Shown here in pieces: positions 5,512-49,737 of a stretch of 50,354 bases of DNA. The notes beneath the pieces were generated by a model. That model made no database searches and was not told the DNA's origin. It saw nothing but the letters and a program-made list of their open reading frames with translations. The stretch is taken from sequence record MH051911; one strand, written 5' to 3'. Positions within the stretch are counted from its first letter, which is position 1; the number at the start of each line of letters is the position of its first letter. The translations under genes were made by a program, and so were the position numbers. This DNA comes from Enterobacteria phage vB_EcoS_IME18.

Positions 5512-6036
5512 TTAAAGCATGTCAAGAATGCTATTTACTGCGTCCTTCATTGCATCCTCAGTAGTGGCTACTACTGTCGATGCGGAAGCTGACGAGTTTT
5601 CGATATTGATTGAGGCTGGCTTGTCGATTCCGAGATCCTTACCGATAAATGAGGCGTTAATAACACCGTTGGCGGCAAGCTGGAATTTTTGCTCGTTGAT
5701 TACCGATTCCACAAACTCCATAACCTCACTGTATTCTTCCTCTCGCTTCCACTTAATGATTGCGGCCTCGCTTGCACCGATGAATAGTCGGTATCCGGTC
5801 CAGGTGAAGACGCGCGGCTTATGGACAAGCGATTCATAAACGCCACCCTGAAAGCTGGCTGATTCTGACGCCTTGATTGCATTGTCCTCGGCCCATTCGA
5901 AATACTTCACTGACAGATCGAATAGTTGCTCTGGCGTCATCGCCCGGTTTTTCGCGAGTACAGTGCCAAACTTTTTCTTGTATAGCTCTTTGAAATTACC
6001 CCCCTGGACTACGGGAGCGTTCTTAGGTTCACTCAT
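5512..6036 (-). CDS. putative terminase small subunit
   Basis: Start reassigned to ATG 6034-6036 with SD GAGGA; position immediately upstream of large terminase. Confidence 0.5.
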   Translation of the reverse strand: MSEPKNAPVVQGGNFKELYKKKFGTVLAKNRAMTPEQLFDLSVKYFEWAEDNAIKASESASFQGGVYESLVHKPRVFTWTGYRLFIGASEAAIIKWKREEEYSEVMEFVESVINEQKFQLAANGVINASFIGKDLGIDKPASINIENSSASASTVVATTEDAMKDAVNSILDML

Positions 6037-6088
6037 AAATCCATCCTCTTTGTTTAACATTTAGTGCTATTTTACCATATTGCAGGCA

Positions 6089-6112
6089 TAAAAAAACCCG
6101 CCGAAGCGGGTT
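6089..6112 (-). terminator. intrinsic terminator separating early island from packaging operon
   Basis: Stem CCCGC/GCGGG with CGAA loop, A8 run on plus (U-run on minus transcript). Confidence 0.65.
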
Positions 6113-6120
6113 AGTGTTTA

Positions 6121-6348
6121 TCACGACAATCGTCGCTTAATTCCTTTAGGGTGGGTCTGAGCTTTAGAGTAGCAGTGAGCAAGGTCGCCAGTCATCTCCC
6201 ATTGGTCCTTCTTAGGTGAGTAGGTCAGCCATACACCAGTTTTATCCTTAGCGTCCATCGCAATTGCTGCCGCAACAAGTGCGAAGCCAGCAAACAAACC
6301 AGCACCAAAAATAACAACACCAGAGATAATCAATAAAAAAATTGTCAT
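6121..6348 (-). CDS. small membrane protein, hypothetical
   Basis: N-terminal hydrophobic stretch IFLLIISGVVIFGAGLFAGFALVAAAIA; SD AGGAG. Confidence 0.5.
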   Translation of the reverse strand: MTIFLLIISGVVIFGAGLFAGFALVAAAIAMDAKDKTGVWLTYSPKKDQWEMTGDLAHCYSKAQTHPKGIKRRLS

Positions 6349-6349
6349 G

Positions 6350-6535
6350 TTAAATCTCCTTGATTAATTCAATATTTATTTTGTGAGTGTCAAGGTTAGC
6401 GCCTGAAAGTTTTTTTGCTTTCGTGATGGCTTCTGCCTGACTGGTTGCTGATAATTCAGTTTCGAAAGATTGCTTGCACGACTGGCAAAACATTCCCATC
6501 TTTCGAATAATTAATTTAACTTTGAATCGCTTCAT
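6350..6535 (-). CDS. hypothetical protein
   Basis: 61-aa ORF tightly packed against neighbours. Confidence 0.4.
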   Translation of the reverse strand: MKRFKVKLIIRKMGMFCQSCKQSFETELSATSQAEAITKAKKLSGANLDTHKINIELIKEI

Positions 6536-6677
6536 CTTCCTGCGCCTTAATCATAACGCCAGCAATGCGACCAATAACAGCCTCGCCAGGATTTAATCGT
6601 TTTTTATAACGAGTGGTTTCACCGTTGCGAGTTACTTTAATTTCAATTTTGACTGATTCATCTTTAGTGTTTTGCAT
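6516..6677 (-). CDS. hypothetical small protein (53 aa)
   Basis: ATG 6675-6677 with SD AGAGGA spacer 7; not in ORF track (below size cut-off); overlaps next gene start. Confidence 0.35.
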   Translation of the reverse strand: MQNTKDESVKIEIKVTRNGETTRYKKRLNPGEAVIGRIAGVMIKAQEDEAIQS

Positions 6678-6841
6678 TATGCAATCCTCTTGAATTTTTG
6701 CCGCTTACGGGTCTGCGGCGTTGCTTAACCACTATGCAACCGAGCTTGTTAGCTGGAAGTGTGAGAATCGTCTCACGCGTTGCGCCTAATTGCGCCTCGT
6801 CTGTCTACGGGATTAATACTATCACCGCTCAGGGATTTAGG

Positions 6842-7045
6842 TCAATCATTAATTTCGAATTGCCCCTTAGTCATATCCTGCGGGTAATCAATTTCATGAA
6901 GGTTTCCATCGTCACCGTACACATATACGAGTCTATTTGCTTTACTTACCTTTTCAACATCGTACAAGCACCCCGCTGAGAAAGCATCGCTATTGCGTGA
7001 CGTGAAGCATCGAACCTGATCGCCTTTCTTCGGTAAATTAGCCAT
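6842..7045 (-). CDS. hypothetical protein
   Basis: 67-aa ORF in co-directional tightly packed block. Confidence 0.45.
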   Translation of the reverse strand: MANLPKKGDQVRCFTSRNSDAFSAGCLYDVEKVSKANRLVYVYGDDGNLHEIDYPQDMTKGQFEIND

Positions 7046-7275
7046 TATTCGTAATCCCCTTCTTTGTTACCTACGCGCCCGGCAATATACCCGGCAGTCC
7101 AGACAAACTTGTATCGGTCGATGAGTAGCTCGACCTTTTTGTGGTGAGTAGAAATCACGTCAATCATGATCTTGTCGTTTTTACGATCTTCCTTCTTCAT
7201 GCCGCTAACGAATTTATTTAATTCCTTCGCCGCGCGCTTTACTACGTTCCATTCAACTTCACTTAAACCGAACAT
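7045..7275 (-). CDS. hypothetical protein
   Basis: 76-aa ORF; start/stop overlap with neighbours. Confidence 0.5.
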   Translation of the reverse strand: MFGLSEVEWNVVKRAAKELNKFVSGMKKEDRKNDKIMIDVISTHHKKVELLIDRYKFVWTAGYIAGRVGNKEGDYE

Positions 7276-7619
7276 TATTTACCTCCACCAAATGAGAAGT
7301 TAACATCTAAAACCTGATTGCAAACCGACTCCATGTATCGCAACTGATATTGAGCAACCTTTGAAGGACTTAATTCATCGGTAAATAAATCCTCAACGTT
7401 GATTTCTTTTTTATGCTTGCGCTTCCATGCCTTGATGATATTTGGCAAGATGCGTTCGCTTTTCCATGCTGCGAACTCAGCTTGATTCGTCGATACTGGT
7501 GTAATCTGCCTGTCGATCTGGTTAAGCAATTCAGCCGTAGCACCTTTTACGTGAAGCTGTTCACCAATCGTGTCCAGGAGTTCGCGCGCTTGTTTATCTG
7601 ACAAGTTAATCGTAATCAT
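7275..7619 (-). CDS. hypothetical protein
   Basis: 114-aa ORF; start/stop overlap with neighbours. Confidence 0.5.
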   Translation of the reverse strand: MITINLSDKQARELLDTIGEQLHVKGATAELLNQIDRQITPVSTNQAEFAAWKSERILPNIIKAWKRKHKKEINVEDLFTDELSPSKVAQYQLRYMESVCNQVLDVNFSFGGGK

Positions 7620-7825
7620 GCCTCTTCTCCTTCTTCTTCGATCGGTGTAAAGAACTGAGTGTTCACTGCCGGGTTATAATAAACTCCGTCATCATAGTCG
7701 CTTTCTTTCACTTCGATAAAAACGTCGCAACCGTCATGCATGAAATCACCATTATCAGTATGAACAAGCTCGAATACTTCAGAGGTTTTAGTGCAGGTGA
7801 AAAACTTATCAGTTGATACCATCAT
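7616..7825 (-). CDS. hypothetical protein
   Basis: 69-aa ORF; first gene downstream of box at 7886..7900. Confidence 0.5.
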   Translation of the reverse strand: MMVSTDKFFTCTKTSEVFELVHTDNGDFMHDGCDVFIEVKESDYDDGVYYNPAVNTQFFTPIEEEGEEA

Positions 7826-7885
7826 TTCGATTTTCTCTCTTCGTTGTCGATGAGGTAACTATATCAAATCACCCCATCGACGTTT

Positions 7886-7900
7886 TAGCAATTCGTGCTA
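7886..7900 (-). promoter_or_regulatory. palindromic box TAGCA-N5-TGCTA (promoter-associated)
   Basis: TAGCAATTCGTGCTA; on minus strand TATAGT lies exactly 22 nt downstream (7859-7864); overlaps stop codon of kinase gene. Confidence 0.6.
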
Positions 7901-8470
7901 TTTATTGATGAACGTGGCGGCTATGTGCTGAGCGGTAATTTCTGGATGACCTTCGACAGAAAAGAAGTCACATTCCTGATAACCGTTAACCCCGATCATG
8001 TAGTCAAGATAGATATAGTCGCGGCTGTCGTTATCAAAGCTGCAACCTTTGCGATGTATGCGGCATAGCTTGACCTGGATATCACCTTCAATCATTTGCA
8101 AGATCTCATCTTTGAATCCACCATCAGTAAATACCGAAAGGGAGTGCGACTCTTTCACCTTGCTTTCCGCTCGCATACCGAAAAAGCGATTGCCGAATTG
8201 CGGCTTGATGACCTCTTCACTAATCCAGATCATAAACTGGCGTGGGCTTTTACCGTTCAGGATTGATGCTGGCTCTTCTTTATATCGACGGTCCTCATAC
8301 AAGAACATGAAATACTCGTAGTTAGCTTCACCCAGGATTGCTCGGGCAATCTCAAACATTGGCGCTTTGAAGCTGCGCAAGGCTACGTGATCGTAAGTGT
8401 CAGCAAGGATGCATCCGATAGTGTCTTTTCCCGCTCCAGGTGCGCCGTTTAAAATGATAGCTGTTTTCAT
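7898..8470 (-). CDS. P-loop kinase (polynucleotide kinase-like or dNMP kinase-like)
   Basis: Walker A GAPGAGKDT at N-terminus; LNGKSP motif; adjacent to PNK-type phosphatase gene. Confidence 0.65.
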   Translation of the reverse strand: MKTAIILNGAPGAGKDTIGCILADTYDHVALRSFKAPMFEIARAILGEANYEYFMFLYEDRRYKEEPASILNGKSPRQFMIWISEEVIKPQFGNRFFGMRAESKVKESHSLSVFTDGGFKDEILQMIEGDIQVKLCRIHRKGCSFDNDSRDYIYLDYMIGVNGYQECDFFSVEGHPEITAQHIAATFINK

Positions 8471-8578
8471 GTTAGTATCTCCCTAAAAATAATTTTGCCA
8501 CATTGATGATAGTGTGATTGATGATTAACAGGATGATAACCGTCAATACCGGATGTGCTGCAATAAATTCGTACAGGT

Positions 8579-9190
8579 TCACTTCAATAACTCCTTGCAC
8601 TTAATACATATTTTATCGCCAAATGGCGGTAGCGGCTCAGATGGTTCATGATTGCAAACCTCATCTACGCCATGAGATTTTAAATGATCGTGAATTTTAT
8701 CGCCATAGTCAACTACGGCATACGTTGTTATTCCAAGCGAGCGGAATAATGGAATAATCTGCGGTGAGTCATCCCAAGCTGCCAGGATGTTCTCAATACC
8801 GATCGCGCGCACCGCCTCTTCTTTCATTACCGTGTCTTTGCGGTTGTCGGTGTGCGGCCTCATGACCAAGTAATCATATCGAGCGCCGTGATGCTTAAGC
8901 CATAACTCAGATGCGTAACGCACCTCATCACTTCGCCCGGTTAAAATTATTACATGATATCCAGCGGCAAACATAGAGTTCATCACATCGATCGTGCTTT
9001 GGATAGGGTTGTCAAATATTGCCGAGCGGTTAAACTCGGACCAGCTTTCAGTTAAGTGCAAATCCTTTGTCGGTAGCAGGTGAAGTCGACCAGATCCATC
9101 GCTAAGTGTTCCATCAAAGTCAAAGATTGCTACGCGGCGCGTGCCGAGAAACAGATTGATTGCCTGGCCCCAAATTGTGATTTTATCCAT
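8579..9190 (-). CDS. HAD-family phosphatase resembling polynucleotide kinase 3'-phosphatase domain
   Basis: DxDGT motif FDFDGTL, ILTGRS, DNRKDTVMKEEA resembling T4 Pnk phosphatase segments (from memory). Confidence 0.65.
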   Translation of the reverse strand: MDKITIWGQAINLFLGTRRVAIFDFDGTLSDGSGRLHLLPTKDLHLTESWSEFNRSAIFDNPIQSTIDVMNSMFAAGYHVIILTGRSDEVRYASELWLKHHGARYDYLVMRPHTDNRKDTVMKEEAVRAIGIENILAAWDDSPQIIPLFRSLGITTYAVVDYGDKIHDHLKSHGVDEVCNHEPSEPLPPFGDKICIKCKELLK

Positions 9191-9258
9191 GATTTATTCC
9201 TCTGATTGGTTGCTTAACTCAATGAAGGGCATTCTATCAAATGCCCTTGAGCAAGTTT

Positions 9259-9273
9259 TAGCAATTCGTGCTA
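9259..9273 (-). promoter_or_regulatory. palindromic box TAGCA-N5-TGCTA (promoter-associated)
   Basis: TAGCAATTCGTGCTA; TAGAAT 22 nt downstream on minus strand; hairpin AAGGGCAT/ATGCCCTT in spacer. Confidence 0.6.
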
Positions 9274-9720
9274 TTACCAGCAATCGACCTCGTAGTCAGC
9301 CCAAGCGTCAAAATCACTTTGGCAGAATGTGCCGCTATAATTTTCCATCATTTCATCGATCAGGAAGTAGCACGACTCACCGTTACGATAGAAGTATGAA
9401 TCAGCAACGTTACGCGCCCAGCGCCCAGCATCTTTCTTGCTCATCTTCCAGTATTTCATTGCAATTTTCTTGAATGCGCGAACAACGCGTTTGCGGATCT
9501 TTATATGCTTGTACACAGCGTTGCAGCCGTAGGCCATATATTCGTTATCGCCAAGATTCTGCATAATGTACGGATTTACTTCTCTTGACGTAATCATCAG
9601 ATCGCCATCGCCGCGACGCTCATCATAAATACTTGCTGTCATGTAGTGACCTCTGAACATTCCGATGCCGTGAAGAGTGTATTCATCGTTAGGCGTTTCA
9701 ATGCAAATTAAGTGTTTCAT
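9274..9720 (-). CDS. hypothetical protein
   Basis: Start reassigned to ATG 9718-9720 with SD GAGGAAG; 148 aa. Confidence 0.5.
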   Translation of the reverse strand: MKHLICIETPNDEYTLHGIGMFRGHYMTASIYDERRGDGDLMITSREVNPYIMQNLGDNEYMAYGCNAVYKHIKIRKRVVRAFKKIAMKYWKMSKKDAGRWARNVADSYFYRNGESCYFLIDEMMENYSGTFCQSDFDAWADYEVDCW

Positions 9721-9777
9721 TAGTGCTTCCTCGTTTGTTGGTGTAGGGGAATCATAGCGCATTCCCCTTGATAGGTT

Positions 9778-9996
9778 TTAGCAATTCGTGCTATTCGTTT
9801 TAATAGTAATGCAAAAATAATTTTTTAAGCACGTCACCACGCGCGCTGAATCGACTTGTGGGAGCCTTAAAACCTCGCTGACCAATTGCACTGCCGACAC
9901 CTCAGATTTGTAGTAGTGGGCGATTCTGGAGCTATTTGGGCGCATTCCTTCCACTGCGTCGCGTGCTGCATCTTCTGCTGTCATGATAGTAGCCAT
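9778..9996 (-). CDS. questionable ORF, hypothetical
   Basis: 72-aa ORF whose 3' end reads through the palindromic box; weak SD; may be non-coding. Confidence 0.25.
   Translation of the reverse strand: MATIMTAEDAARDAVEGMRPNSSRIAHYYKSEVSAVQLVSEVLRLPQVDSARVVTCLKNYFCITIKTNSTNC
9779..9793 (-). promoter_or_regulatory. palindromic box TAGCA-N5-TGCTA (promoter-associated)
   Basis: TAGCAATTCGTGCTA; TATGAT 22 nt downstream on minus strand. Confidence 0.55.
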
Positions 9997-10103
9997 AAAA
10001 CACCCTTAAGAGATAATGTCAGGATCAGGAGGCAAAATAGCAACTCCTGAAATGATGGCGGCTCGTTATTCCAGTTAGAAAAGTCTGGCATAGTTCTTTC
10101 TCC

Positions 10104-10137
10104 AAAAGAAAGGGGAACCGCTCAGAGCCGATTCCCC
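10104..10137 (-). terminator. intrinsic terminator
   Basis: Stem GGGGAA/TTCCCC with A-rich run upstream on plus (U-rich on minus transcript); downstream of gene 10145..10783. Confidence 0.45.
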
Positions 10138-10144
10138 GTTAAAA

Positions 10145-10783
10145 TTACATGATGAACATCAGCGAAATCGAAGCTACCAGGAGAACAAGCGCAACAGCCA
10201 GGCCGGATAAATCCGCTTTCTCTTCAAACTTCAATGCTGGCTTGCGGTCAACTTGTGACGCCTTGACGCTGTGGATCTTGTTTGCTGCAACCTTGCCTTT
10301 AACGCAGAAAGTGCGCTTACGCTTCTTGCCGAACGTTGCAAACTTAGTGCCGCCGCTATTCCATCTCAGACCTTCGCCATTGTGCGTTACGGTAGCAATG
10401 CGGTGACGCCCCGTGTCGTCAGTAAGCGCTACAGTGTGTTTTGCGTTCTCGGTCGGCGCTTCGTAAATATTGCCAACAGTAAATTTTTTGGTGTTATCGC
10501 TGATACATTCGAATTTCATAAATTTTACCTCTTTATTATGCAGTTGGTTGATTGCTTCGATTACGTCGTTAAATTTAACACCATCCACGATTCGATGGAA
10601 GATGTATTTTGAACTATTGCCATACGGCAGGAATATCTCCTGGTATTCGTGACGACGGACAATGTTCACGTTGCAACCGTTCTCATCAGTAATGATGAAG
10701 CTGTCATCATTTACGCGAACACCTTTGTAAGTTTTTCCCCACTTAAAACCAGATCCGCTACTTGATACGCACTCAAATTTCAT
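10145..10783 (-). CDS. membrane-anchored protein with tandemly duplicated domain
   Basis: Two internal repeats each starting MKFEC(V/I)S...; C-terminal hydrophobic segment LSGLAVALVLLVASISLMFIM. Confidence 0.5.
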   Translation of the reverse strand: MKFECVSSSGSGFKWGKTYKGVRVNDDSFIITDENGCNVNIVRRHEYQEIFLPYGNSSKYIFHRIVDGVKFNDVIEAINQLHNKEVKFMKFECISDNTKKFTVGNIYEAPTENAKHTVALTDDTGRHRIATVTHNGEGLRWNSGGTKFATFGKKRKRTFCVKGKVAANKIHSVKASQVDRKPALKFEEKADLSGLAVALVLLVASISLMFIM

Positions 10784-11067
10784 GGTCTAACCTTCCTGTA
10801 AGGCTTGATTGATAACATCACGTATTGCGTGAAGTCGCATCCTTGATCGTCATACCCGCGATTGATGTATGGCGTCACGTCTGTAACATCGGACACCCTG
10901 GCGTGAACTTCCCACCCGGTAAACTCGTCACGTTCGAACTCGCGTAGCTCAAGGATATCACCAACCTGGAAGTTTCGGTCATTGACGCGGAACTCTGCCG
11001 TTTTGGTTCCGTTCATTACACCAATGAAATGTACCGGGGCGATTTTTAACTTATGAGTTTTGCTCAT
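10780..11067 (-). CDS. hypothetical protein (possible ASCH/DUF3850-like fold)
   Basis: 95-aa ORF, SD GAGGTAAAG; family assignment is tentative recollection. Confidence 0.45.
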   Translation of the reverse strand: MSKTHKLKIAPVHFIGVMNGTKTAEFRVNDRNFQVGDILELREFERDEFTGWEVHARVSDVTDVTPYINRGYDDQGCDFTQYVMLSIKPYRKVRP

Positions 11068-11257
11068 CTTTCTTTACCTCAAATGTCACGTTCCAGAATT
11101 TATTGCCGCATGAATGATAGATTACGTCCTGAGATGTTAGTTCGTGCAATGCGTGCCCGATAATCTCCATTCGGTCATTCGGCGCCAGTCCACGAAGTGA
11201 TTCGCGTAGGCGTGATGCCTTGTCGTAAATCTGCCACTGCGTGAGTCGTGTATCCAT
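11051..11257 (-). CDS. hypothetical protein
   Basis: Start reassigned to ATG 11255-11257 with SD AGAGGA in conserved CCAATCAGAGGA context. Confidence 0.45.
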   Translation of the reverse strand: MDTRLTQWQIYDKASRLRESLRGLAPNDRMEIIGHALHELTSQDVIYHSCGNKFWNVTFEVKKDEQNS

Positions 11258-11325
11258 AGCTGATTCCTCTGATTGGTTGCTCTGCTTCAATAAGGCCACT
11301 ATATCAAATGGCCTTGCGGAAGGTT

Positions 11326-11340
11326 TAGCAATTCGTGCTA
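11326..11340 (-). promoter_or_regulatory. palindromic box TAGCA-N5-TGCTA (promoter-associated)
   Basis: TAGCAATTCGTGCTA; TATAGT 22 nt downstream on minus strand. Confidence 0.6.
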
Positions 11341-11487
11341 TCGTTTAACGCACATTGTTTTAACTTCGTACCCGAACGGCTTATTCTCTGCAATTACTTC
11401 CCGCGCCTTGTTGCATGATTGCTGACTTTCCATGTATACGTGATCAGGCCCGGTACTCATCAAGATAATCAAGATCCACGCAGCCAT
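11338..11487 (-). CDS. hypothetical small protein (49 aa) with hydrophobic N-terminus
   Basis: ATG overlaps upstream stop (TAATG); stop TAG lies inside box; not in ORF track. Confidence 0.4.
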   Translation of the reverse strand: MAAWILIILMSTGPDHVYMESQQSCNKAREVIAENKPFGYEVKTMCVKR

Positions 11488-11993
11488 TATTTCACCTCAT
11501 AGCGTACAAGCGTTCCGCGCTTAATGCTGATTTCACCTGATACCGTTTTGTGCTTAAAGCTGCCGTAATGCAATAGGAGAATCACTACATCATCATGCAC
11601 CTCAATAGTTTTAGGTGTGGCGGTAATCTCGGTCCAGGATTCGCTATCAAGTTGGACGCCCTTTATCGTAGCGCTCAATGGCATGTTCTCGATCTGAGTG
11701 CATTGTAACATCGGTTTAATTTCTGGCTTTGCGGTGTTGAAGATGGATCGATCAGTTTTCCAACCATCACACTTTCCGTACACATCCTGACTACCACTAA
11801 TAATGTAATGGTAATCCTTCTTGGCTGAGTTTTCAGGATTTACTTCATTGTGCCGATTGATAAACCAATCCAACTTAAGTTGAGACACCTCATCAGTGGC
11901 ACACTTGCCTTTATCTTCACTGGTGAATGTAATTTCACCGCAACCCAGGCTGATAAATTTAATCGGGAATTTTACGTCTTCTAATTTTAACAT
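11487..11993 (-). CDS. hypothetical protein
   Basis: 168-aa ORF with SD AGAGGA. Confidence 0.55.
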   Translation of the reverse strand: MLKLEDVKFPIKFISLGCGEITFTSEDKGKCATDEVSQLKLDWFINRHNEVNPENSAKKDYHYIISGSQDVYGKCDGWKTDRSIFNTAKPEIKPMLQCTQIENMPLSATIKGVQLDSESWTEITATPKTIEVHDDVVILLLHYGSFKHKTVSGEISIKRGTLVRYEVK

Positions 11994-12051
11994 GATGCTT
12001 TCCTCTTAGTGGTTTATGCGGGGATTATACCATTCAGGACAAATCCCCTTT

Positions 12052-12067
12052 TAACAATTCGTTCTTA
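12052..12067 (-). promoter_or_regulatory. degenerate palindromic box with consensus -10
   Basis: TAACAATTCGTTCTTA; on minus strand TATAAT exactly 22 nt downstream. Confidence 0.5.
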
Positions 12068-12553
12068 GTAAACTAACTCACACTCAATATCGAACGGCTC
12101 TGGATCTCGATGGAAGAAGCAAAGTGCCTCTTTATTCATACCTCCCACAAATCCAACAGCATGAAGCTGTTCACCGTTGATATAAGCTAAGTGCGCGGTG
12201 ATTTCTTCAAAGTCAACGATAACCGGGAACGTGCGATTCTCATAACCTTGACGCATCGGGTAGCCGCCATTACTGAGAAGACGAACCTTGCGAGGCTTGA
12301 TGTTTGCCTGCACTTCCCAATCAAAAAAGAACATCGTTCCGTCCTTCTCGTTGAAGTCTGCCGGGCCGAATACAGGGCTAACAGAAAGTCCGTAGTCAAG
12401 ATCGTACACGCCAGCTTTAACAAGATCGTCAACCTTAACGCGGTAGCCTCCAGTGCTGGAATCGCACTTAACCGCATCAACCACGATATGGTCGGCTTCA
12501 AGGTCGCGGGTGAATCCCTTGTAACCACCAGTGCAAAGTAATTTGATTTTCAT
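12065..12553 (-). CDS. hypothetical protein (MKIKLLCTGG family paralog)
   Basis: 162-aa ORF, SD GAGGA; N-terminus resembles 10145 and 18760 products. Confidence 0.55.
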   Translation of the reverse strand: MKIKLLCTGGYKGFTRDLEADHIVVDAVKCDSSTGGYRVKVDDLVKAGVYDLDYGLSVSPVFGPADFNEKDGTMFFFDWEVQANIKPRKVRLLSNGGYPMRQGYENRTFPVIVDFEEITAHLAYINGEQLHAVGFVGGMNKEALCFFHRDPEPFDIECELVY

Positions 12554-12612
12554 GCTATCGTCCTCGTTCGTTGTCGATGGGGTTACTATATCGCAACCCC
12601 TGAGTTGAGTTT

Positions 12613-12627
12613 TAACAAAAAGTGCTA
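12613..12627 (-). promoter_or_regulatory. palindromic box (promoter-associated)
   Basis: TAACAAAAAGTGCTA; TATAGT 22 nt downstream on minus strand. Confidence 0.6.
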
Positions 12628-12816
12628 TTCTTTAATTTCGAAGCAATCGGTGTCTTCGTCGAATATCCAGGGGTCGCCGTTATCATCAAGTAATGAGATA
12701 TTCCCGAAGCTGGTTAGCGATGCACTATAAGGCTTGTCAACGGTAAAGCACTCTTTAACTTCCTCGTAATCACTGCCTTTGAATACTGCAATCATTTGGT
12801 GCATAAAATCAGCCAT
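12625..12816 (-). CDS. hypothetical protein
   Basis: 63-aa ORF. Confidence 0.4.
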   Translation of the reverse strand: MADFMHQMIAVFKGSDYEEVKECFTVDKPYSASLTSFGNISLLDDNGDPWIFDEDTDCFEIKE

Positions 12817-12825
12817 TGTTAAATC

Positions 12826-12999
12826 CTATTCGCAAGTGATTTCATTTGATGTGATTGGTAGCAATACGTTACCAACCATCACGAAAGTAGTAACCTGGTT
12901 CCCGGTTTCATTGCATCGCTCTTTGACCTCGTCGCAGCCGGACACTACCAGGATAGCCAGGGCGACAGCCGCCATCATGCAGATCAGAATGCGCATCAT
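12826..12999 (-). CDS. small lipoprotein, hypothetical
   Basis: Start reassigned to ATG 12997-12999 (SD GGGAG); signal MMRILICMMAAVALAILVVSGC with lipobox-like VSGC. Confidence 0.45.
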   Translation of the reverse strand: MMRILICMMAAVALAILVVSGCDEVKERCNETGNQVTTFVMVGNVLLPITSNEITCE

Positions 13000-13106
13000 T
13001 CGAACGCTCCCGCACACAGTAGTAACATGATTACGATCCCAACAATGGCATGACCCATGCAGAAGAACCAGACGGCAGACCATAGAGCTATTGTATTGAA
13101 GTTCAT
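12996..13106 (-). CDS. small hydrophobic peptide (36 aa), hypothetical
   Basis: ATG overlaps upstream stop (ATGA) and its stop overlaps lipoprotein start; predicted membrane peptide; not in ORF track. Confidence 0.3.
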   Translation of the reverse strand: MNFNTIALWSAVWFFCMGHAIVGIVIMLLLCAGAFE

Positions 13107-13330
13107 TTTAGTACCTCGATCTTGTTGTCGCCGATTGAGTTTTCTACTACCGATTGCGGGTCGTCTCCAGGGACGCGCATGTAGAAATTACTCACTGCTG
13201 TGAAGTTCCATTGACCTCGCCACTTGAAATATAATCCGTGTTTTGCGCCCTTCGCGTAATGAGTGGATTTAGCAGGGATCATGTGCCCGTTGACTCGGGT
13301 CAGTTTGGTTAGGTTACTGTAACGTGGCAT
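13103..13330 (-). CDS. hypothetical protein
   Basis: 75-aa ORF with SD GAGGA. Confidence 0.5.
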   Translation of the reverse strand: MPRYSNLTKLTRVNGHMIPAKSTHYAKGAKHGLYFKWRGQWNFTAVSNFYMRVPGDDPQSVVENSIGDNKIEVLK

Positions 13331-13336
13331 GATTAT

Positions 13337-13600
13337 TTATTCCTCAATTAAAGTGCTGATATCGTCATATCCCTGAAATTCACCATTCCAGATCAAGAAG
13401 CTCGTTACGCCCTCAATCTCAATCCACTTGCCATTCTCCTCGCGATATTCCTTGTAAATGTATGGGGAAGGCTCAATCACTGCATAGCGGCGATACTGCA
13501 AGCCACCATTGATGCTTGAGCAGTAGCGAGCAATGAAAATCGCGTGTTGCTTGTTGTGGCGAGTAGCTTCAATTGCGTTGCGATTCTTGACTATAGACAT
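13337..13600 (-). CDS. hypothetical protein
   Basis: Start reassigned to ATG 13598-13600 with SD AGAGGA in CCAATCAGAGGA context. Confidence 0.5.
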   Translation of the reverse strand: MSIVKNRNAIEATRHNKQHAIFIARYCSSINGGLQYRRYAVIEPSPYIYKEYREENGKWIEIEGVTSFLIWNGEFQGYDDISTLIEE

Positions 13601-13666
13601 GGTGATTCCTCTGATTGGCATCTCGTTTCAATGGTGTAACTATATCAAGATACCCCGATCCGGTTT

Positions 13667-13681
13667 TAACAATTCGTGCTA
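13667..13681 (-). promoter_or_regulatory. palindromic box (promoter-associated)
   Basis: TAACAATTCGTGCTA; TATAGT 22 nt downstream on minus strand. Confidence 0.6.
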
Positions 13682-14149
13682 TTTGGTGAGATATTTCACA
13701 CGGCTTCCGGCAGTCTCATTCCAGCCATCCTCAAAGAATACGCTATAGCAAGTTGTCGAACGCTGGCGAACCTTCGACACAGTGCGCCACACTTTACGGC
13801 CCGAGTAACCAGTCAGCACACGCATCCCTGGCAACAACTCACCAGACTTTCTCACCTTAATGGCAACATCAGCATCAAGCTCGAACGACTCAAGATAGAC
13901 CGGGTTAATCATATTGCACATGCGGCGCTCTTCGTGCTCATCTGCCCACTCGCAGCCATTGTTCGTCTTGATAGCTCCAATGAAGCAACCCAGTTTTTCA
14001 GTAAGTGAGCCTGCGCGGTATGAGTTGATATCGATGACCGTGTAATGGCTATACATATGCCAGTGCAATCCGGTTTTGTGCTCAAACGCGAAGAATGACA
14101 TTTCGCCATCAACCTCATCTTTAGCCAGAAATACGGTAATTGTCGTCAT
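13679..14149 (-). CDS. hypothetical protein
   Basis: 156-aa ORF; stop TAG inside box. Confidence 0.55.
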   Translation of the reverse strand: MTTITVFLAKDEVDGEMSFFAFEHKTGLHWHMYSHYTVIDINSYRAGSLTEKLGCFIGAIKTNNGCEWADEHEERRMCNMINPVYLESFELDADVAIKVRKSGELLPGMRVLTGYSGRKVWRTVSKVRQRSTTCYSVFFEDGWNETAGSRVKYLTK

Positions 14150-14151
14150 GA

Positions 14152-14346
14152 TTAAGCCTCGGAAAAATAAGTGTTAAATCCTTTGAGTTTGTAGTCGCTG
14201 CCGACGCGCACCACGTTCCAGGTAAGACCAGAGTGATACGCAACCATATCCTCAAGGTCGATCGTGATTTCGGTTCCCTTCTTGAACAGACCCTTTTCAT
14301 GAGTTGAGTCTCGCTGAACAACCACTACGTCAATTTGCGTTTCCAT
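14152..14346 (-). CDS. hypothetical protein
   Basis: Start reassigned to ATG 14344-14346 with SD AGAGGA. Confidence 0.45.
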   Translation of the reverse strand: METQIDVVVVQRDSTHEKGLFKKGTEITIDLEDMVAYHSGLTWNVVRVGSDYKLKGFNTYFSEA

Positions 14347-14406
14347 CTTTGTTTCCTCTGTATCGTGTCGATGAAAAGATAATACCCGATCCGCTCGACC
14401 GGGATT

Positions 14407-14421
14407 TAACAAAAAGTGCTA
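14407..14421 (-). promoter_or_regulatory. palindromic box (promoter-associated)
   Basis: TAACAAAAAGTGCTA; TATTAT 22 nt downstream on minus strand. Confidence 0.55.
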
Positions 14422-14679
14422 TTTCATCAAAGTGAAGCAGCGAATTTTATTTGGCTTGAATAGGAATAGCTGGATGCCTTGCACCTTACCAAGACTTATC
14501 ATCTCTACGCCAAACTGTTTACGCACATACCGAACCAGCTCATCAGCTGGCGAACTCATCTGTAGGCCGAGTCTATAGAAGCCGACGAACCCGAATGTCT
14601 CGGGGTTAAGCTGGAATGCTTCGCCTGGATTTAGTTGCATCAATACACCTTTCAGGGCGTCATGATTAATCTTGCTCAT
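14419..14679 (-). CDS. hypothetical protein
   Basis: Start chosen at ATG 14677-14679 with SD AAGGAG spacer 8. Confidence 0.45.
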   Translation of the reverse strand: MSKINHDALKGVLMQLNPGEAFQLNPETFGFVGFYRLGLQMSSPADELVRYVRKQFGVEMISLGKVQGIQLFLFKPNKIRCFTLMK

Positions 14680-14691
14680 AACCATCTCTCC

Positions 14692-15207
14692 TTACAATCC
14701 ACATTTCTCAATATGCGCTTTCATCTGGCGCACGATCTCATTTACATCACGAACCATTAACTCGCTATCGCCCAGCTTGCTAACATCAACGTCAAACGAA
14801 TCGAGGCAATCAGTCAGGCTAACTTTCTTCCGGCTGCGGCGCTTCTTCACCGGAACCTCTTCGTCTGTAACGATAACGGTTATCATCGTGATTGCCGCGT
14901 CATTCCGGCCTACCTTCACCTTTGCCACCTTGCCATACTTACAGAAGTGCCTGGTAATGATCGGAGTGATGAAAGCGGACTTGAATCGCTTCTCTACCTC
15001 CCCCTGGTTCTGGTCCACCCATCCGGCAGCGGCAGATTCAAGATCGCTATCGCTTACCTCCTGGTCACGGAAGTAGAATCGCGCGGCTTCGAGGGCCATA
15101 TCATCAGCCACGAAAGAGAACTCATTCATGCCTTTGTCGCGATACATTGCATCGCAGGTTAGTCGAATCATATCGGTGATTTTTAATTCCTGATTGGTGT
15201 TGCTCAT
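14692..15207 (-). CDS. hypothetical protein
   Basis: 171-aa ORF, SD AGAGGG; first gene of minus-strand early block. Confidence 0.55.
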   Translation of the reverse strand: MSNTNQELKITDMIRLTCDAMYRDKGMNEFSFVADDMALEAARFYFRDQEVSDSDLESAAAGWVDQNQGEVEKRFKSAFITPIITRHFCKYGKVAKVKVGRNDAAITMITVIVTDEEVPVKKRRSRKKVSLTDCLDSFDVDVSKLGDSELMVRDVNEIVRQMKAHIEKCGL

Positions 15208-15611
15208 AATATACCCTCTTTGTCTATTCGTGTGTAAATGGTGTCATAATGTGTCAACAATTGCCATTGTGACATTGCGATGTAGAGCTGTCAATGCCTG
15301 CGAGCCAATTTTAAGCCGTGTAACATTTGTCTAGCTGTCTAGAGTCACTATAGAAATATATAGCTCTCAAAAAAGTACTGTATATATAAACATGCAGATA
15401 GAAATATGCCAACAGTACGCCAGACAATGTAAGACAACTATACACAACTATTACAATATAATTATCTATATATATAAATAAAAAAAACACTATATATATT
15501 ATATAGATACATATATCTATATGTATATTTAGAGGCGTCACAGTGTGTAATTTTGTCACAAGTGCGATTCTAGACAAATATTACATCCGTGACAAGTTAA
15601 AGTGTAATCGA

Positions 15612-15626
15612 TAGCACTTTTTGCTA
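15612..15626 (+). promoter_or_regulatory. palindromic box TAGCA-N5-TGCTA
   Basis: TAGCACTTTTTGCTA inside control region; no good -10 at +22. Confidence 0.4.
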
Positions 15627-15816
15627 AAAATGGAGATGACTACCAGGCGAACTGGGCAACACCAGATCATCCCTCTCACAATCATTGCAATCTCAGCAAC
15701 AAATCAACCAACTGTTGCACACCATGCAATAATCACGTTTCATCATTTGCAATCAATCGCAATCAGAATTATTCCACCTATTCCGATATTGATGGAATAA
15801 TGAGCAATTATTGGAA

Positions 15817-15831
15817 TAGCATTTTTTGCTA
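15817..15831 (+). promoter_or_regulatory. palindromic box (promoter-associated)
   Basis: TAGCATTTTTTGCTA with TATGGT-like hexamer about 22-23 nt downstream; upstream of 15895 gene. Confidence 0.45.
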
Positions 15832-15894
15832 ATGACTCGATCAGGTTGTCGGGGTATGGTTCTGGCCATCAACCAATCAGAAGAGGAAGCAGCA

Positions 15895-16512
15895 ATGAAG
15901 TTAATTTGGTCACTATTCGACGGTTCCGGTCTTGCGGGTCATGAACTGGCAAAGCAAGGTCACAAGGTGATGTGCTTCAACTTTGACGGAGCAGATCACG
16001 GAGATTACGCAAAGTACAATGCCCGGGTTGAGCATCCGAACATTGAGTATGTGAACGTGTTCATTGATGCAACGTTTGAGCGTGATGCGATCGCGGGTGT
16101 GTATGGCAAGCCGGATTTTATTATGGCCTTCCCTCCTTGCACTGACCTGGCTGTTAGTGGTGCTCGTCACTTTGCAAGCAAGCGTGAGCGCGATCCGTTA
16201 TTCCAGGAGAAAGCTGTTGCCACCGCTAGGATTGCTGCGAATATTGGCGACGCCCTGGGAGTGACTTACATCATTGAGAATCCGGTGAGCGTCCTGTCAT
16301 CTGCCTGGAGAAAACCAGATCACTCCTTCAATCCCTGGGAGTATGGCGGCTACCTTCCTGAGAATGACGCACATCCCTGGTTCCCGATGTATATTGCGCC
16401 GCGCGATGCTTACCCGAAGAAAACTTGTCTTTGGACCTCTGACGATTTTGTCATGCCAGAGAAAAAACCTGTAACCTGCCTGACGGGTACTCTGCACAGC
16501 ACAGCAAGCTAG
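15895..16512 (+). CDS. short C5-cytosine methyltransferase-like protein
   Basis: Start reassigned to ATG 15895 (SD AGAGGAAG); motif I-like LFDGSGLAG, PC motif FPPCTD, ENV-like IIENPVSV; only about 205 aa, no obvious target-recognition domain. Confidence 0.5.
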   Translation: MKLIWSLFDGSGLAGHELAKQGHKVMCFNFDGADHGDYAKYNARVEHPNIEYVNVFIDATFERDAIAGVYGKPDFIMAFPPCTDLAVSGARHFASKRERDPLFQEKAVATARIAANIGDALGVTYIIENPVSVLSSAWRKPDHSFNPWEYGGYLPENDAHPWFPMYIAPRDAYPKKTCLWTSDDFVMPEKKPVTCLTGTLHSTAS

Positions 16513-28604: not shown

Positions 28605-28627
28605 ACACGGCATACAGTAAACGTTTT

Positions 28628-28642
28628 TAGCAAAAAGTGCTA
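28628..28642 (-). promoter_or_regulatory. palindromic box (promoter-associated, divergent)
   Basis: TAGCAAAAAGTGCTA; on minus strand TATTAT 22 nt downstream, upstream of helicase; also sits about 10 bp from RBS of plus gene 28656. Confidence 0.55.
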
Positions 28643-28655
28643 TAGGAGAATTAAG

Positions 28656-45916: not shown

Positions 45917-45938
45917 GATATTTCTCCTGATTGGTTAA

Positions 45939-45953
45939 TAGCACTTTTTGTTA
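45939..45953 (+). promoter_or_regulatory. palindromic box adjacent to chaperone G RBS
   Basis: TAGCACTTTTTGTTA about 20 bp upstream of G start on opposite strand; TACGAT 22 nt downstream on plus. Confidence 0.4.
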
Positions 45954-45989
45954 AAAGCAAAGAGTGCAAAGTTGATACGATGATTTTAC

Positions 45990-49695: not shown

Positions 49696-49701
49696 CAATA
49701 A

Positions 49702-49716: not shown

Positions 49717-49737
49717 AAGCGTCAAAGTGTTTTTATG

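What the first reader, a model, noticed from the sequence alone, without database searches (positions are those of the whole stretch)
6121..15207. Early island of about 27 small uncharacterised genes, each with its own box promoter: candidate host-takeover / anti-defence region
Roughly 9 kb of co-directional small ORFs (36-212 aa), many with overlapping start/stop codons, is interspersed with box-promoter modules and bounded by terminators at 6089-6112 and the control region at 15208. Only the kinase, the PNK-type phosphatase and a possible ASCH-like protein have recognisable features. Several tiny hydrophobic peptides missed by the ORF track are present (6516..6677, 11338..11487, 12996..13106). 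Such early blocks are where phages usually keep anti-restriction and anti-defence functions.
Basis: inference. Interest (0 to 1): 0.6.

Follow-up and report, generated by a model that had tools for sequence, protein, structure and literature searches.

The report
T1-type early gene block, shuffled at promoters
This is the well-known block of small, mostly function-unknown genes at the left end of T1-like coliphages. It is split into about eleven short operons by a repeated promoter cassette that also acts as the crossover point where related phages swap genes, and none of its genes is shown to be anti-defence.

Summary
The gene block is real: 28 co-directional minus-strand genes (36-212 aa), all supported by family hits or codon-position bias. 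It is the orf55-orf77 block of phage T1 (window ~91% identical to Tunavirus phages), annotated as hypothetical in hundreds of genomes.

"Each with its own box promoter" is wrong. Eight box cassettes plus canonical promoters serve 28 genes, and the box occurs genome-wide (28 copies vs 2.3 expected). The box was published for phage TLS in 2024 as an unexplained repeat.

What I add:
- The cassette has a rigid architecture: box, 19 nt, extended -10, conserved leader, and a covarying hairpin over the -10.
- Published T1 reporter data imply that two copies fire with host polymerase alone.
- 12 of 16 gene-scale indels among 14 relatives end in a cassette, and three are cassette-to-cassette deletions. 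This resembles the PeSL cassettes of T4-like phages.

Recognisable products are a dNMP-kinase-like protein, a PNKP-type phosphatase, an ASCH/DUF3850 protein, a Gp54 homologue (published CapRel trigger), the Orf65 regulator orthologue and six membrane or lipoproteins. No known anti-defence family matches, and most Drexlerviridae are restriction-sensitive. Anti-defence remains plausible for a few variable genes only.

The parts
14692..15207 (-). g28, 171 aa, first gene after the canonical promoters (T1 ST77 homologue, 52% identity)
14419..14685 (-). g27, 86-88 aa, cassette in a three-state variable slot
   Evidence: phrog_35072. Only 4 clusters among 5.8 billion sequences. In relatives the slot holds the g27 family, an unrelated ~108-aa family, or nothing.
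14347..14422 (-). Cassette Ma: box 14422-14404, spacer hairpin, -10 TATTAT, leader CATCGACACGA, SD
   Evidence: Also scored as terminator-like (14403-14385).
14152..14346 (-). g26, 64 aa, Gp54-family protein (SH3-like barrel; Bas11 Gp54 is a CapRelSJ46 trigger)
   Evidence: PF25180, 121 bits against a cut-off of 27. PDB 9axb Gp54, E 4e-15. Literature.
13679..14149 (-). g25, 156 aa, unknown; absent from T1 and Eco_BIFF together with g26
   Evidence: phrog_12951. Presence/absence.
13601..13682 (-). Cassette Mb: box 13682-13664, hairpin over -10 TATAGT, leader with CCAATCAGAGGAA
13337..13600 (-). g24, 87 aa, unknown, with a hypervariable N-terminal half
   Evidence: phrog_11449. Divergent segment 13400-13553.
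13103..13330 (-). g23, 75 aa, DUF7274, basic
   Evidence: PF23939, 134 bits.
12996..13106 (-). g22, 36-aa membrane peptide
   Evidence: phrog_25570. KD 2.49, third-position share of substitutions 0.76.
12826..12999 (-). g21, 57-aa putative lipoprotein (signal peptide ending VVSGC)
   Evidence: phrog_8628 matches from residue 28 of the long ORF. KD 2.75. The lipobox is read directly from the sequence.
12625..12816 (-). g20, 63 aa, acidic (net charge -11), absent from T1
   Evidence: phrog_11551..
12554..12628 (-). Cassette Mc: box 12628-12610, hairpin GGGGTT/AACCCC over the -10; crossover point in CLB_P3 and Eco_BIFF
12065..12553 (-). g19, 162 aa, unknown, acidic
   Evidence: phrog_9595. Present in all 14 Tunavirus relatives.
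11994..12067 (-). Cassette Md: degenerate box (3 mismatches) 12067-12049, TGgTATAAT inside the hairpin GGGGATT/AATCCCC
11487..11993 (-). g18, 168 aa, the most widely conserved larger unknown; C-terminal SH3/KOW-like barrel
11338..11487 (-). g17, 49 aa, weakly hydrophobic N-terminus
   Evidence: phrog_5579..
11258..11341 (-). Cassette Me: box 11341-11323, hairpin AAGGCCA/TGGCCTT, leader AACCAATCAGAGGAAT; the only stretch of the island that megablast finds in ~200 phages of other genera
11051..11257 (-). g16, 68 aa, unknown; deleted or replaced in several relatives
   Evidence: phrog_18601..
10780..11067 (-). g15, 95 aa, DUF3850/ASCH (PUA-like, RNA-binding type)
   Evidence: PF12961, 59 bits against a cut-off of 22.9. 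phrog_986.
10145..10783 (-). g14, 212 aa, two SH3-like repeats and a C-terminal membrane anchor
   Evidence: Weak DUF7244 hit. phrog_10580. KD 2.66 at residues 194-212.
10112..10137 (-). Intrinsic terminator inside the island (9-bp stem followed by TTTCTTTT)
   Evidence: T1 annotates the equivalent site.
9981..10091 (-). g13, 36-aa membrane peptide
   Evidence: KD 2.38, intact in 14 of 14 relatives.
9778..9996 (-). g12, 72 aa, unknown
   Evidence: phrog_11330.
9721..9794 (-). Cassette Mf: consensus box 9794-9776, -10 TATGAT in the hairpin GGGGAAT/ATTCCCC; equivalent to the published T1 orf65 promoter
9274..9720 (-). g11, 148 aa, orthologue (84% identity) of T1 Orf65, a published transcription regulator
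   Evidence: PMC6737242. No fold or family hit.
9191..9274 (-). Cassette Mg: consensus box 9274-9256, hairpin GGGCAT/ATGCCC; crossover partner of Mf in phiD2-2
8579..9190 (-). g10, 203 aa, PNKP-type HAD 3'-phosphatase (DFDGTL motif), with no kinase domain
   Evidence: PF25109, E 1.7e-16. PDB Pnkp1 and T4 Pnk phosphatase domains.
8472..8600 (-). g09, 36-42-aa membrane peptide; T1 and Eco_BIFF carry an HNH endonuclease at this position instead
   Evidence: KD 2.22..
7898..8470 (-). g08, 190 aa, P-loop dNMP-kinase-like protein (GAPGAGKDT)
   Evidence: phrog_139, E 1e-45. No Pfam or NCBIfam hit.
7826..7901 (-). Cassette Mh: consensus box 7901-7883, 15-bp hairpin (-23 kcal/mol) over TGATATAGT, leader CATCGACAACGA
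7616..7825 (-). g07, 69 aa, very acidic (net charge -14)
   Evidence: phrog_10456..
7275..7619 (-). g06, 114 aa, DUF7180
   Evidence: PF23805, 110 bits.
7045..7275 (-). g05, 76 aa, phrog_303, conserved in all genera examined
6842..7045 (-). g04, 67 aa, unknown
   Evidence: phrog_4927.
6678..6845 (-). Canonical promoter TTGACC-18-TAGTAT (with TG) and a conserved, structured ~135-nt leader without a box
6516..6677 (-). g03, 53 aa, hydrophilic
   Evidence: phrog_6666..
6350..6535 (-). g02, 61 aa, basic, conserved in all genera examined
   Evidence: phrog_2919..
6121..6348 (-). g01, 75 aa, N-terminal membrane segment, weak DUF7299 match
6095..6112 (.). Bidirectional intrinsic terminator that closes the block
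6052..6070 (-). Orphan box at the terS ribosome-binding site, overlapped at its 5' edge by TGgTAAAAT; conserved in all Tunavirus
15266..15294 (-). Canonical sigma70-type promoter TTGACA-17-CACAAT (with TG) facing g28
15567..15595 (-). Second canonical promoter TTGTCA-17-TAGAAT facing the island
15611..15629 (+). Orphan, perfectly palindromic box about 60 bp upstream of the 15595 promoter

Best explanation
**What it is.** The region is the conserved left-arm block of a Tunavirus (T1 orf77 to orf55). It holds 28 real small genes between the pac/control region and the terminase genes.

**How it is transcribed.** Host RNA polymerase reads it as about eleven short operons:
- One operon starts at canonical promoters in the control region.
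- One starts at a canonical promoter at 6845.
- Eight start at a family-wide composite cassette.
- For g13-g12 I found no promoter.

**The cassette.** It consists of the box ATAGCACnnnTTGnTAAAA, then exactly 19 nt, then an extended -10 (TGnTATAGT), then a conserved leader and SD. A covarying hairpin overlaps or abuts the -10.
- The TTGnTA of the box lies 22 nt from the -10, too far to act as a -35.
- The palindrome TAGCA-N5-TGCTA would be centred near -42.
- I infer that the cassette is an extended -10 promoter with an upstream recognition element. It fires with host polymerase alone and can be modulated by factors.
- I infer that the hairpin acts on read-through RNA from the upstream gene as a 3'-end stabiliser or partial insulator.

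**Gene shuffling.** The cassette also serves as the patch of homology through which related phages delete, insert and exchange gene cassettes, as PeSL elements do in T4-like phages.

**Gene content.** It is mixed: nucleotide salvage or end-healing enzymes (dNMP-kinase-like protein, 3'-phosphatase), an ASCH-type protein, a transcription regulator (Orf65 orthologue), a Gp54-family protein, six small membrane or lipoproteins, and about 15 proteins with no detectable relatives outside the family.

**Shown versus inferred.** Shown: genes, cassette anatomy, hairpin statistics, breakpoints. Taken from the literature: promoter activity of two T1 copies, and the Orf65 and Gp54 functions. Inferred: early timing, transcription start sites, hairpin role, and any host-takeover or anti-defence role.
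For: - **Identity and synteny:**
- **Genes are real:**
- **Box census:** 28 copies against 2.27 expected, following the direction of transcription.
- **Rigid architecture:** of 165 distinct cassettes from 266 kb, 132 have a -10-like hexamer exactly 19 nt after the box (TATAGT 66 times), and about 99 have TGn before it.
- **Hairpin:** mean MFE -13.9 against -5.5 kcal/mol for random 42-mers (p = 7.5e-47); mean z -3.4; 81% have z < -2. 47 of 108 cassettes pair in one fixed register using 19 different complementary arm pairs.
- **Cassette more conserved than genes:** about 200 records from other genera match only window 11261-11341, at 88-98% identity.
- **Breakpoints:** 12 of 16 gene-scale indels have an end in a cassette (p = 4e-7 against random position). 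Three deletions run cassette to cassette with 32-90 nt of shared sequence. One relative's cassette is a mosaic of three window cassettes.
- **Promoter function:** T1 Pdam and Porf65 are consensus box cassettes. They were active as reporters without phage infection, and Pdam also in E. coli cell-free extract.
- **Published repeat:** TLS paper.
- **PeSL analogy:**
Against: - No transcription start site or time-course data exist for any T1-like phage in the library searched, so start sites and 'early' timing are unverified.
- Against the stricter null that indels simply fall at gene junctions, the breakpoint enrichment is only p = 0.04.
- Most hairpins lack a U-tract, so they are not classical terminators, and their role is a guess.
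- Two conserved orphan boxes without a -10 (at terS and in the control region) suggest the box is a protein-binding site in its own right, which the simple promoter picture does not explain.
- No promoter was found for g13-g12.
- The reporter levels in the T1 paper could not be inspected, because the figures are not held in the library.
Confidence: 0.7

Rival explanations
1. One reading: the block is mainly a host-takeover and anti-defence arsenal, whose small proteins inhibit restriction, abortive-infection or signalling defences.
For: - The position is consistent with early expression.
- Gene content is accessory, and one slot has three states among relatives.
- The Gp54 family is a defence trigger, and its authors suggest it may inhibit another system.
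- Two very acidic small proteins, g07 (-14) and g20 (-11), have the charge profile of DNA mimics (inference).
- Drexlerviridae differ in defence sensitivity for unknown reasons.
Against: - No hit to any known anti-defence family in Pfam, PHROGs or NCBIfam.
- The identifiable products are nucleotide enzymes, a regulator and membrane proteins.
- Much of the block is conserved within the genus rather than rapidly turning over.
- The Gp54 homologues of SECphi27, Bas5 and Bas8 did not trigger CapRelSJ46.
Confidence: 0.3
2. The box is an operator or activator site for a specific DNA-binding protein, so the cassettes are switched rather than constitutive. Candidates are the island's own Orf65/g11, the Pir regulator at 28656-29105, or host Lrp.
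For: - The palindrome TAGCA-N5-TGCTA has an invariant GC-containing arm, unlike an UP element.
- Its centre would lie near -42, the classical class II position (inference).
- Orphan boxes sit at operator-like positions at terS and upstream of the early promoter.
- Orf65 activates its own box promoter and represses pir, whose promoter region overlaps an inverted box.
- Pir is encoded family-wide, in 823 records.
- Box cores match the Lrp consensus yAGhAwATTwTdCTr at 11-14 of 15 positions.
Against: - Porf65 is a perfect box yet independent of Pir, and Pir also regulates the hol and recE promoters, which have no box.
- g11 is deleted in phiD2-2 and poorly conserved outside the genus.
- Pdam works in cell-free extract without phage proteins.
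- The invariant C at box position 7 violates the Lrp consensus, and the consensus is loose: 77 sites in the window reach 12 of 15.
Confidence: 0.3
3. The cassettes are rho-independent terminators, as annotated in phages SA30RD and SA12KD, and the neighbouring promoter-like sequence is incidental.
For: - WebGeSTer and TransTermHP annotations at the equivalent sites.
- Strong hairpins.
- Cassette Ma and several cassettes outside the island have a stem followed by the T-rich -10 and discriminator.
Against: - In six of the eight island cassettes the hairpin is followed by ATCGAC, ATTGAA or similar with no T-run.
- Only two classical terminators pass a stem-plus-T-run scan inside or at the edge of the block.
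- The fixed 19-nt spacing to a TGnTATAGT and the reporter activity of two copies are not explained by a terminator.
Confidence: 0.1

Closest known systems
21-nt direct repeats of phage TLS (aaATAGCACnnnTTGnTAAAA; Phage 2024, PMC11447400)
   Same: Same consensus, intergenic position, orientation with transcription and distance to the start codon (about 75-85 nt). The authors state that similar repeats exist in T1, Rtp and Rogue1.
   Different: The paper left the function open (stoperator, enhancer site or UP element). It did not report the fixed spacing to an extended -10, the hairpin, the conserved leader, the orphan copies, or any role in recombination.
PeSL (promoter-early stem-loop) cassettes of T4-like myoviruses (PMC2839356, PMC4122927)
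   Same: A composite promoter plus stem-loop, repeated between small genes of a variable region. Indels and replacements between close relatives end in or next to the element, and deletions occur between two copies.
   Different: PeSLs have a stem-loop upstream of a canonical -35/N17/-10 promoter. Here there is no -35 at N17, the conserved box lies 22 nt from the -10, and the hairpin overlaps the -10. The phage family is unrelated (siphovirus, about 50 kb). Mini-circle excision was not tested.
Gp54 of phage Bas11 (PF25180; PDB 9axb), direct activator of CapRelSJ46
   Same: g26 matches the family at 121 bits and the crystallised protein at E 4e-15. Both are about 64-66 aa, come from the same phage family and lie in the same gene block.
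   Different: Identity is moderate. The paper shows that the homologues from SECphi27, Bas5 and Bas8 do not trigger CapRelSJ46. The protein's benefit to the phage is unknown.
T1 Orf65 and Pir (Orf23) regulators (mBio 2019, PMC6737242)
   Same: g11 is 84% identical to Orf65, and the window protein at 28656-29105 is 97% identical to Pir. Their published target promoters include box cassettes.
   Different: DNA-binding sites were not mapped in that work. Here no DNA-binding fold could be recognised in g11, and Pir gives only sub-threshold Cro/YdaS matches.
T4 MotA-dependent middle promoters and class II activator-dependent promoters
   Same: A good or extended -10, no usable -35, and a conserved upstream box that replaces it.
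   Different: The MotA box is centred at -30 and needs AsiA. No MotA or AsiA homologue is annotated in this phage family. At least one box cassette (T1 Pdam) works in E. coli cell-free extract without phage proteins. This comparison rests on my own knowledge of those systems.

Membership tests
TLS-type 21-nt repeat family of Drexlerviridae | Consensus aaATAGCACnnnTTGnTAAAA | tested here: met
   28 matches with up to 3 mismatches against 2.27 expected. Same consensus from 165 distinct copies.
TLS-type 21-nt repeat family of Drexlerviridae | Intergenic, oriented with transcription, about 76 nt upstream of start codons | tested here: met
   Strand follows gene direction. Box end to ATG is 52-65 nt, so box start to ATG is about 71-84 nt.
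PeSL cassettes (T4-like phages) | Composite promoter plus stem-loop repeated between genes of a variable region | tested here: met
PeSL cassettes (T4-like phages) | Indel and replacement breakpoints between close relatives coincide with the element | tested here: met
   12 of 16 events, including three element-to-element deletions. Only p = 0.04 against a gene-junction null.
PeSL cassettes (T4-like phages) | Canonical sigma70 early promoter (-35, about 17 nt, -10) downstream of the stem-loop | tested here: not met
   The hexamer at 17-nt spacing is AAAACN. TTGnTA lies 22 nt from the -10, and the hairpin overlaps the -10.
PeSL cassettes (T4-like phages) | Excision of the DNA between two copies as a mini-circle | not testable with these tools
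   Needs PCR or sequencing of infected cells.
Gp54 family (PF25180) | Profile match above the curated cut-off and similarity to the crystallised protein | tested here: met
   121 bits against 27. PDB 9axb, E 4e-15.
Gp54 family (PF25180) | Binds and activates CapRelSJ46 | not testable with these tools
   The paper reports that several homologues do not trigger it.
T4-type polynucleotide kinase/phosphatase (Pnk) | HAD 3'-phosphatase domain with a DxDGT motif | tested here: met
   PF25109, E 1.7e-16. DFDGTL in the sequence. Matches the phosphatase domains of 4xrp and 1ltq.
T4-type polynucleotide kinase/phosphatase (Pnk) | N-terminal P-loop 5'-kinase domain in the same protein | tested here: not met
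   The 203-aa protein aligns only to the phosphatase part (1ltq residues 160-297). The P-loop protein g08 is a separate gene of the dNMP-kinase type.
ASCH / DUF3850 | Profile match above the curated cut-off | tested here: met
   PF12961, 59.2 bits against 22.9. ASCH itself is below its cut-off.
Known anti-defence protein families (Ocr, ArdA, Acr, Tad, Acb and others, as far as they are held in Pfam or named in PHROGs) | Sequence-profile match of any island product | tested here: not met
   No such family at E <= 0.01 in Pfam, PHROGs or NCBIfam. No dedicated anti-defence library was available.
Intrinsic (rho-independent) terminator | GC-rich stem followed directly by a T-run | tested here: not met
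   Met only by 6112-6095, 10137-10112 and cassette Ma. The other island cassettes have no T-run.
E. coli Lrp binding site | Match to yAGhAwATTwTdCTr with at most three mismatches | tested here: inconclusive
   Boxes score 11-14 of 15, most at 12-13. The consensus is loose (77 sites at 12 or more in the window), and the invariant C at box position 7 is a mismatch. Binding was not tested.

The most novel reading that the evidence does not exclude
The box/hairpin cassette would be a distinct promoter class of Drexlerviridae. An extended -10 sits inside a structure-forming inverted repeat and is read together with a sequence-specific factor bound at -42. That factor would be host Lrp or a phage protein such as Orf65. 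The same element at operator-like positions (the terS start and upstream of the early promoter) would set the early-to-late switch. The cassette would also be the family's dedicated device for exchanging accessory genes, among them still unrecognised defence inhibitors (Gp54 family, g27 slot, acidic g07 and g20).
Probability: 0.2. Interest if true: 0.6.

Novelty: new variant of a known kind. Interest (0 to 1): 0.35.

Why it matters
T1-like phages are among the most commonly isolated coliphages and Klebsiella phages, and they are used in defence-system screens. Yet about half of their genes have no known function, and their transcription programme has never been mapped.

- If the unexplained family-wide repeat is a promoter cassette of fixed geometry that fires with host polymerase, the left arm gets an operon map (about eleven units) that can be tested with one 5'-end sequencing experiment.
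- The cassette being the crossover point for gene gain and loss explains why this arm is mosaic. It also points to the slots (g27, g16, g20, g25-g26) where host-specific accessory genes are exchanged.
- The block itself, and the idea that such blocks may hide anti-defence genes, are not new.

Tried and rejected
- **RNA families:** Rfam found nothing, either on the whole window at gathering scores or on 6000-15900 at E <= 1. ARAGORN found no tRNA.
- **Defence and naming libraries:** PADLOC gave nothing, and NCBIfam gave only sub-threshold HAD-phosphatase matches for g10 among the ten proteins scanned in each.
- **Profile searches against PDB sequences:** the g18, g28 and g11 families gave only chance-level hits.
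- **Paralogy:** all-against-all comparison of island proteins found nothing below E 0.01.
- **TTGnTA as a -35:** rejected, because the spacing is 22 nt in 132 of 165 copies and the hexamer at 17 nt is AAAACN.
- **Pir as the general box-binding protein:** rejected as the leading candidate. A perfect box promoter (Porf65) is independent of Pir, and two Pir targets have no box.
- **'GntR-type regulator' annotated in the island of phage LL5:** unrelated to any window protein and without a GntR domain.
- **RNA repair as the role of g08 plus g10:** considered less likely. I know of no RNA ligase in T1-like phages and did not search the window for one. g08 is of the dNMP-kinase type, and T1 and TLS are reported to degrade host DNA and reuse the nucleotides.
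- **Expression timing:** literature searches found no transcriptome or timing data for a T1-like phage.

Full report
**What the window is.** The 9.1-kb region matches 257 phage records. The best matches (LeonhardEuler/Bas13, JMPW1, IME167) are about 91% identical over 95-97% of its length, and all are Tunavirus of the family Drexlerviridae. One product is 100% identical to a protein of phage vB_EcoS_IME18. In T1 the equivalent genes are ST77 to ST55. They lie at the left end of the genome (539-8311), start inside the annotated 2.8-kb terminal repeat, and are followed in the same direction by terS, terL, portal and the structural genes. T1 coordinate 1 maps to about window 15730. The same syntenic block (control region, about 25 small genes, terS) exists in Webervirus, Tlsvirus and Sertoctavirus, almost entirely annotated as hypothetical.

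**The observation.**
- There are 28 minus-strand ORFs of 36-212 aa, with 11 overlapping junctions.
- Twenty-six have their own PHROG family.
- All have an SD-like sequence, remain open in the 2-14 relatives that carry them, and concentrate 54-83% of substitutions at the third codon position, so all are genes.
- Several starts need correcting: g11 9720, g16 11257, g21 12999, g24 13600, g26 14346, g27 probably 14679. These follow from where the PHROG matches begin, the annotations of relatives, and the position of the SD inside the cassette leaders.
- The terminator at 6095-6112 and the control region are as described.
- The claim of one box promoter per gene fails. The box occurs at 14404, 13664, 12610, 12049, 11323, 9776, 9256 and 7883, plus an orphan at 6052.
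- The box also occurs 19 more times elsewhere in the window, on whichever strand is transcribed (28 matches against 2.27 expected).

**The cassette.** The box is the 21-nt repeat published for phage TLS (18 intergenic copies, function left open, said also to occur in T1, Rtp and Rogue1). Anchoring all copies on the box shows a fixed architecture.
- Among 165 distinct copies from the window and 17 related loci (266 kb), 132 have a -10-like hexamer exactly 19 nt after the box (TATAGT 66 times). About 99 are preceded by TGn, which makes an extended -10.
- The TTGnTA of the box is therefore 22 nt from the -10, and the hexamer at the normal 17-nt spacing is AAAACN, so there is no -35.
- If transcription starts at the A of the conserved CATCGA, about 7 nt after the -10, the palindrome TAGCA-N5-TGCTA is centred near -42. 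This is an inference.
- Downstream follow one of two conserved leaders, CATCGAnAACGA or AACCAATCAGAGGAA, the latter including the SD.
- A hairpin overlaps or abuts the -10. The 42 nt after the box fold at a mean of -13.9 kcal/mol against -5.5 for random 42-mers (p = 7.5e-47), with mean z -3.4 against dinucleotide shuffles.
- In the ungapped register, 47 of 108 distinct cassettes form at least 7 of 8 pairs using 19 different complementary arm sequences, which is covariation. The remainder place the stem in the spacer just 5' of the -10.
- Only cassette Ma and the two classical terminators have a T-run after the stem, so the 'terminator' annotations in SA30RD and SA12KD are not convincing for most copies.

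**Promoter function.** In T1, consensus box cassettes lie 55 nt upstream of orf65 and 52 nt upstream of dam. A third lies in the pir/helicase divergent region. The hol and recE promoters have none. A published study measured the Phol, Pdam, Ppir, PrecE and Porf65 reporters in phage-free E. coli, and Pdam, Ppir and PrecE also in E. coli cell-free extract. I conclude that box cassettes work with host polymerase alone. I could not see the figures, so I do not know the activity levels.

That study also shows three further things:
- Orf65 is a transcription regulator that activates its own promoter and represses pir.
- Pir (Orf23) activates hol and dam and represses itself and recE.
- Porf65 is independent of Pir.

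g11 is the Orf65 orthologue (84% identity), and the Pir orthologue is at window 28656-29105 (97% identity).

**Is the box a protein site?**
- Two orphan boxes without a -10 are conserved in all Tunavirus. One lies directly before the terS ribosome-binding site, with TGgTAAAAT overlapping its 5' edge, so the box would lie at about +1 to +15 of a terS promoter. The other is a perfect palindrome about 60 bp upstream of the canonical promoter at 15595.
- This pattern, and the invariant GC-containing arm, fit a sequence-specific binding site better than an UP element.
- Pir is encoded family-wide (823 records), but its regulation does not follow the box.
- Orf65/g11 fits better, but it is dispensable: phiD2-2 has lost it and it is poorly conserved outside the genus.
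- The box cores match the E. coli Lrp consensus at 11-14 of 15 positions. That is a loose consensus with one systematic mismatch, so it is a lead only.

**Cassettes as recombination joints.** Megablast of the island finds about 200 records of other genera that match only window 11261-11341, which is cassette Me, at 88-98% identity. The cassette is thus far better conserved than the genes it serves, and in those phages it precedes different genes.

Against 14 Tunavirus genomes I found 16 distinct gene-scale indels. Twelve have at least one end in a cassette (p = 4e-7 against random positions, p = 0.04 against random gene junctions). Three are cassette-to-cassette deletions:
- phiD2-2 lacks 9275-9764, with the switch of homology inside the 20-nt box.
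- CLB_P3 lacks 12630-13621.
- Eco_BIFF lacks 12630-14331. Its remaining cassette combines the box flank of Ma, a spacer like that of Mb, and the -10 and leader of Mc.

The events that do not involve a cassette are an HNH endonuclease insertion between the kinase and phosphatase genes, a 78-nt change at the end of the phosphatase gene, and an internal deletion in g14. The slot between g28 and Ma has three states: the g27 family in two subtypes, an unrelated family of about 108 aa, or empty. This is the behaviour described for PeSL cassettes in T4-like phages, with a different promoter architecture and in an unrelated phage family.

**The proteins.** Recognisable products:
- g08: dNMP-kinase-like P-loop protein (phrog_139).
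- g10: PNKP-type HAD phosphatase without a kinase domain.
- g15: DUF3850/ASCH.
- g26: Gp54 family.
- g11: Orf65 regulator orthologue.
- g06, g23 and, weakly, g01: domains of unknown function.
- g14: two SH3-like repeats and a C-terminal anchor.
- Six products have a strongly hydrophobic segment (g01, g09, g13, g14, g21 with a lipobox, g22).
- g07 and g20 are very acidic.

Deeper work on the rest gave little:
- g18 is the only larger unknown with homologues in all genera. It is confined to T1-like contigs, and its model has a C-terminal SH3/KOW-like barrel.
- g28, the first gene, has a confident model without a meaningful structural relative.
- g27 has four clusters among 5.8 billion sequences.
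- No product matches a defence or anti-defence family.
- There is no paralogy within the block.

Gp54 of Bas11 is non-essential and of unknown function. It directly activates CapRelSJ46, whereas its homologues from SECphi27, Bas5 and Bas8 do not. [quoted passage not shown]

**Verdict.** The block is real but ordinary and already catalogued. Its box is a published repeat, and the one-promoter-per-gene description is wrong. The anti-defence reading is neither excluded nor supported by any specific match, and I put it at about 0.3 for the block as a whole.

The useful results are the operon map, the fixed geometry of the cassette, the link to published reporter data, and the evidence that the cassette is the crossover point for gene exchange. 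This is a PeSL-like device in a siphovirus family, with a non-canonical promoter.

Noticed in passing
window 6678-6845 (minus strand): A 164-nt non-coding gap without a box. It holds the only canonical sigma70-type promoter inside the block (TTGACC-18-TAGTAT) and a leader of about 135 nt with 5-6 hairpins. It is 93-98% identical in 14 Tunavirus, more than the flanking genes, and 74.5% identical in Sertoctavirus. That one divergent relative supplies six compensatory pair changes, four of them in a single helix. There is no Rfam match. It may be a structured leader or small RNA of the g03-g02-g01 operon.
   Followed up: partly
window 6052-6070 and 15611-15629: Two 'orphan' boxes without a -10 at the fixed offset, conserved in all Tunavirus. 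One sits at the terS ribosome-binding site, overlapped by TGgTAAAAT. The other is a perfect palindrome about 60 bp upstream of the canonical early promoter. They bracket the whole block.
   Followed up: partly
window 45938-45956 (+) and 49701-49719 (+); T1 L003 18832 (-) and 15068 (-): Box copies that point against the direction of the surrounding late structural genes. In T1 they lie in the intergenic gaps before the major capsid gene and after the major tail gene. A -10-like hexamer sits at or near the usual offset, and the copies are conserved between T1 and the window. They may be antisense promoters or roadblock sites.
   Followed up: no
window 15360-15830: The control region contains a very AT-rich stretch with TATATA repeats (15360-15540), repeated TGTGAC/GTCACA motifs around the two canonical promoters, and TTGCAAT(C) repeats at 15732-15762, next to where the T1 genome end (pac cut) maps at about 15730.
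   Followed up: no
window 28656-29105 (+): Orthologue (97% identity) of T1 Pir/Orf23, a published regulator of T1 promoters. Pfam gives only sub-threshold Cro/YdaS-type HTH matches. It is encoded in 823 phage records. Its upstream region holds a box on the opposite strand at 28625-28643.
   Followed up: partly
window 8472-8600; T1 L003 5465-5959; Eco_BIFF L017 3152-3646: The position between the kinase and phosphatase genes holds a 36-42-aa membrane peptide in the window. In T1 and Eco_BIFF it holds an HNH homing endonuclease, an insertion that does not involve a cassette.
   Followed up: no
window 11487-11993; proteins P0084-P0119: In Tempevirinae (for example JakobBernoulli/Bas07 and PGN590) the g18 homologue is a 293-aa protein, about 125 aa longer than in Tunavirus. 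This suggests an extra domain or a gene fusion.
   Followed up: no
window 10092-10144: g13 and g12 lie directly after the internal terminator (10137-10112), with no box and no canonical promoter upstream. How they are transcribed is unexplained; read-through is one possibility.
   Followed up: no
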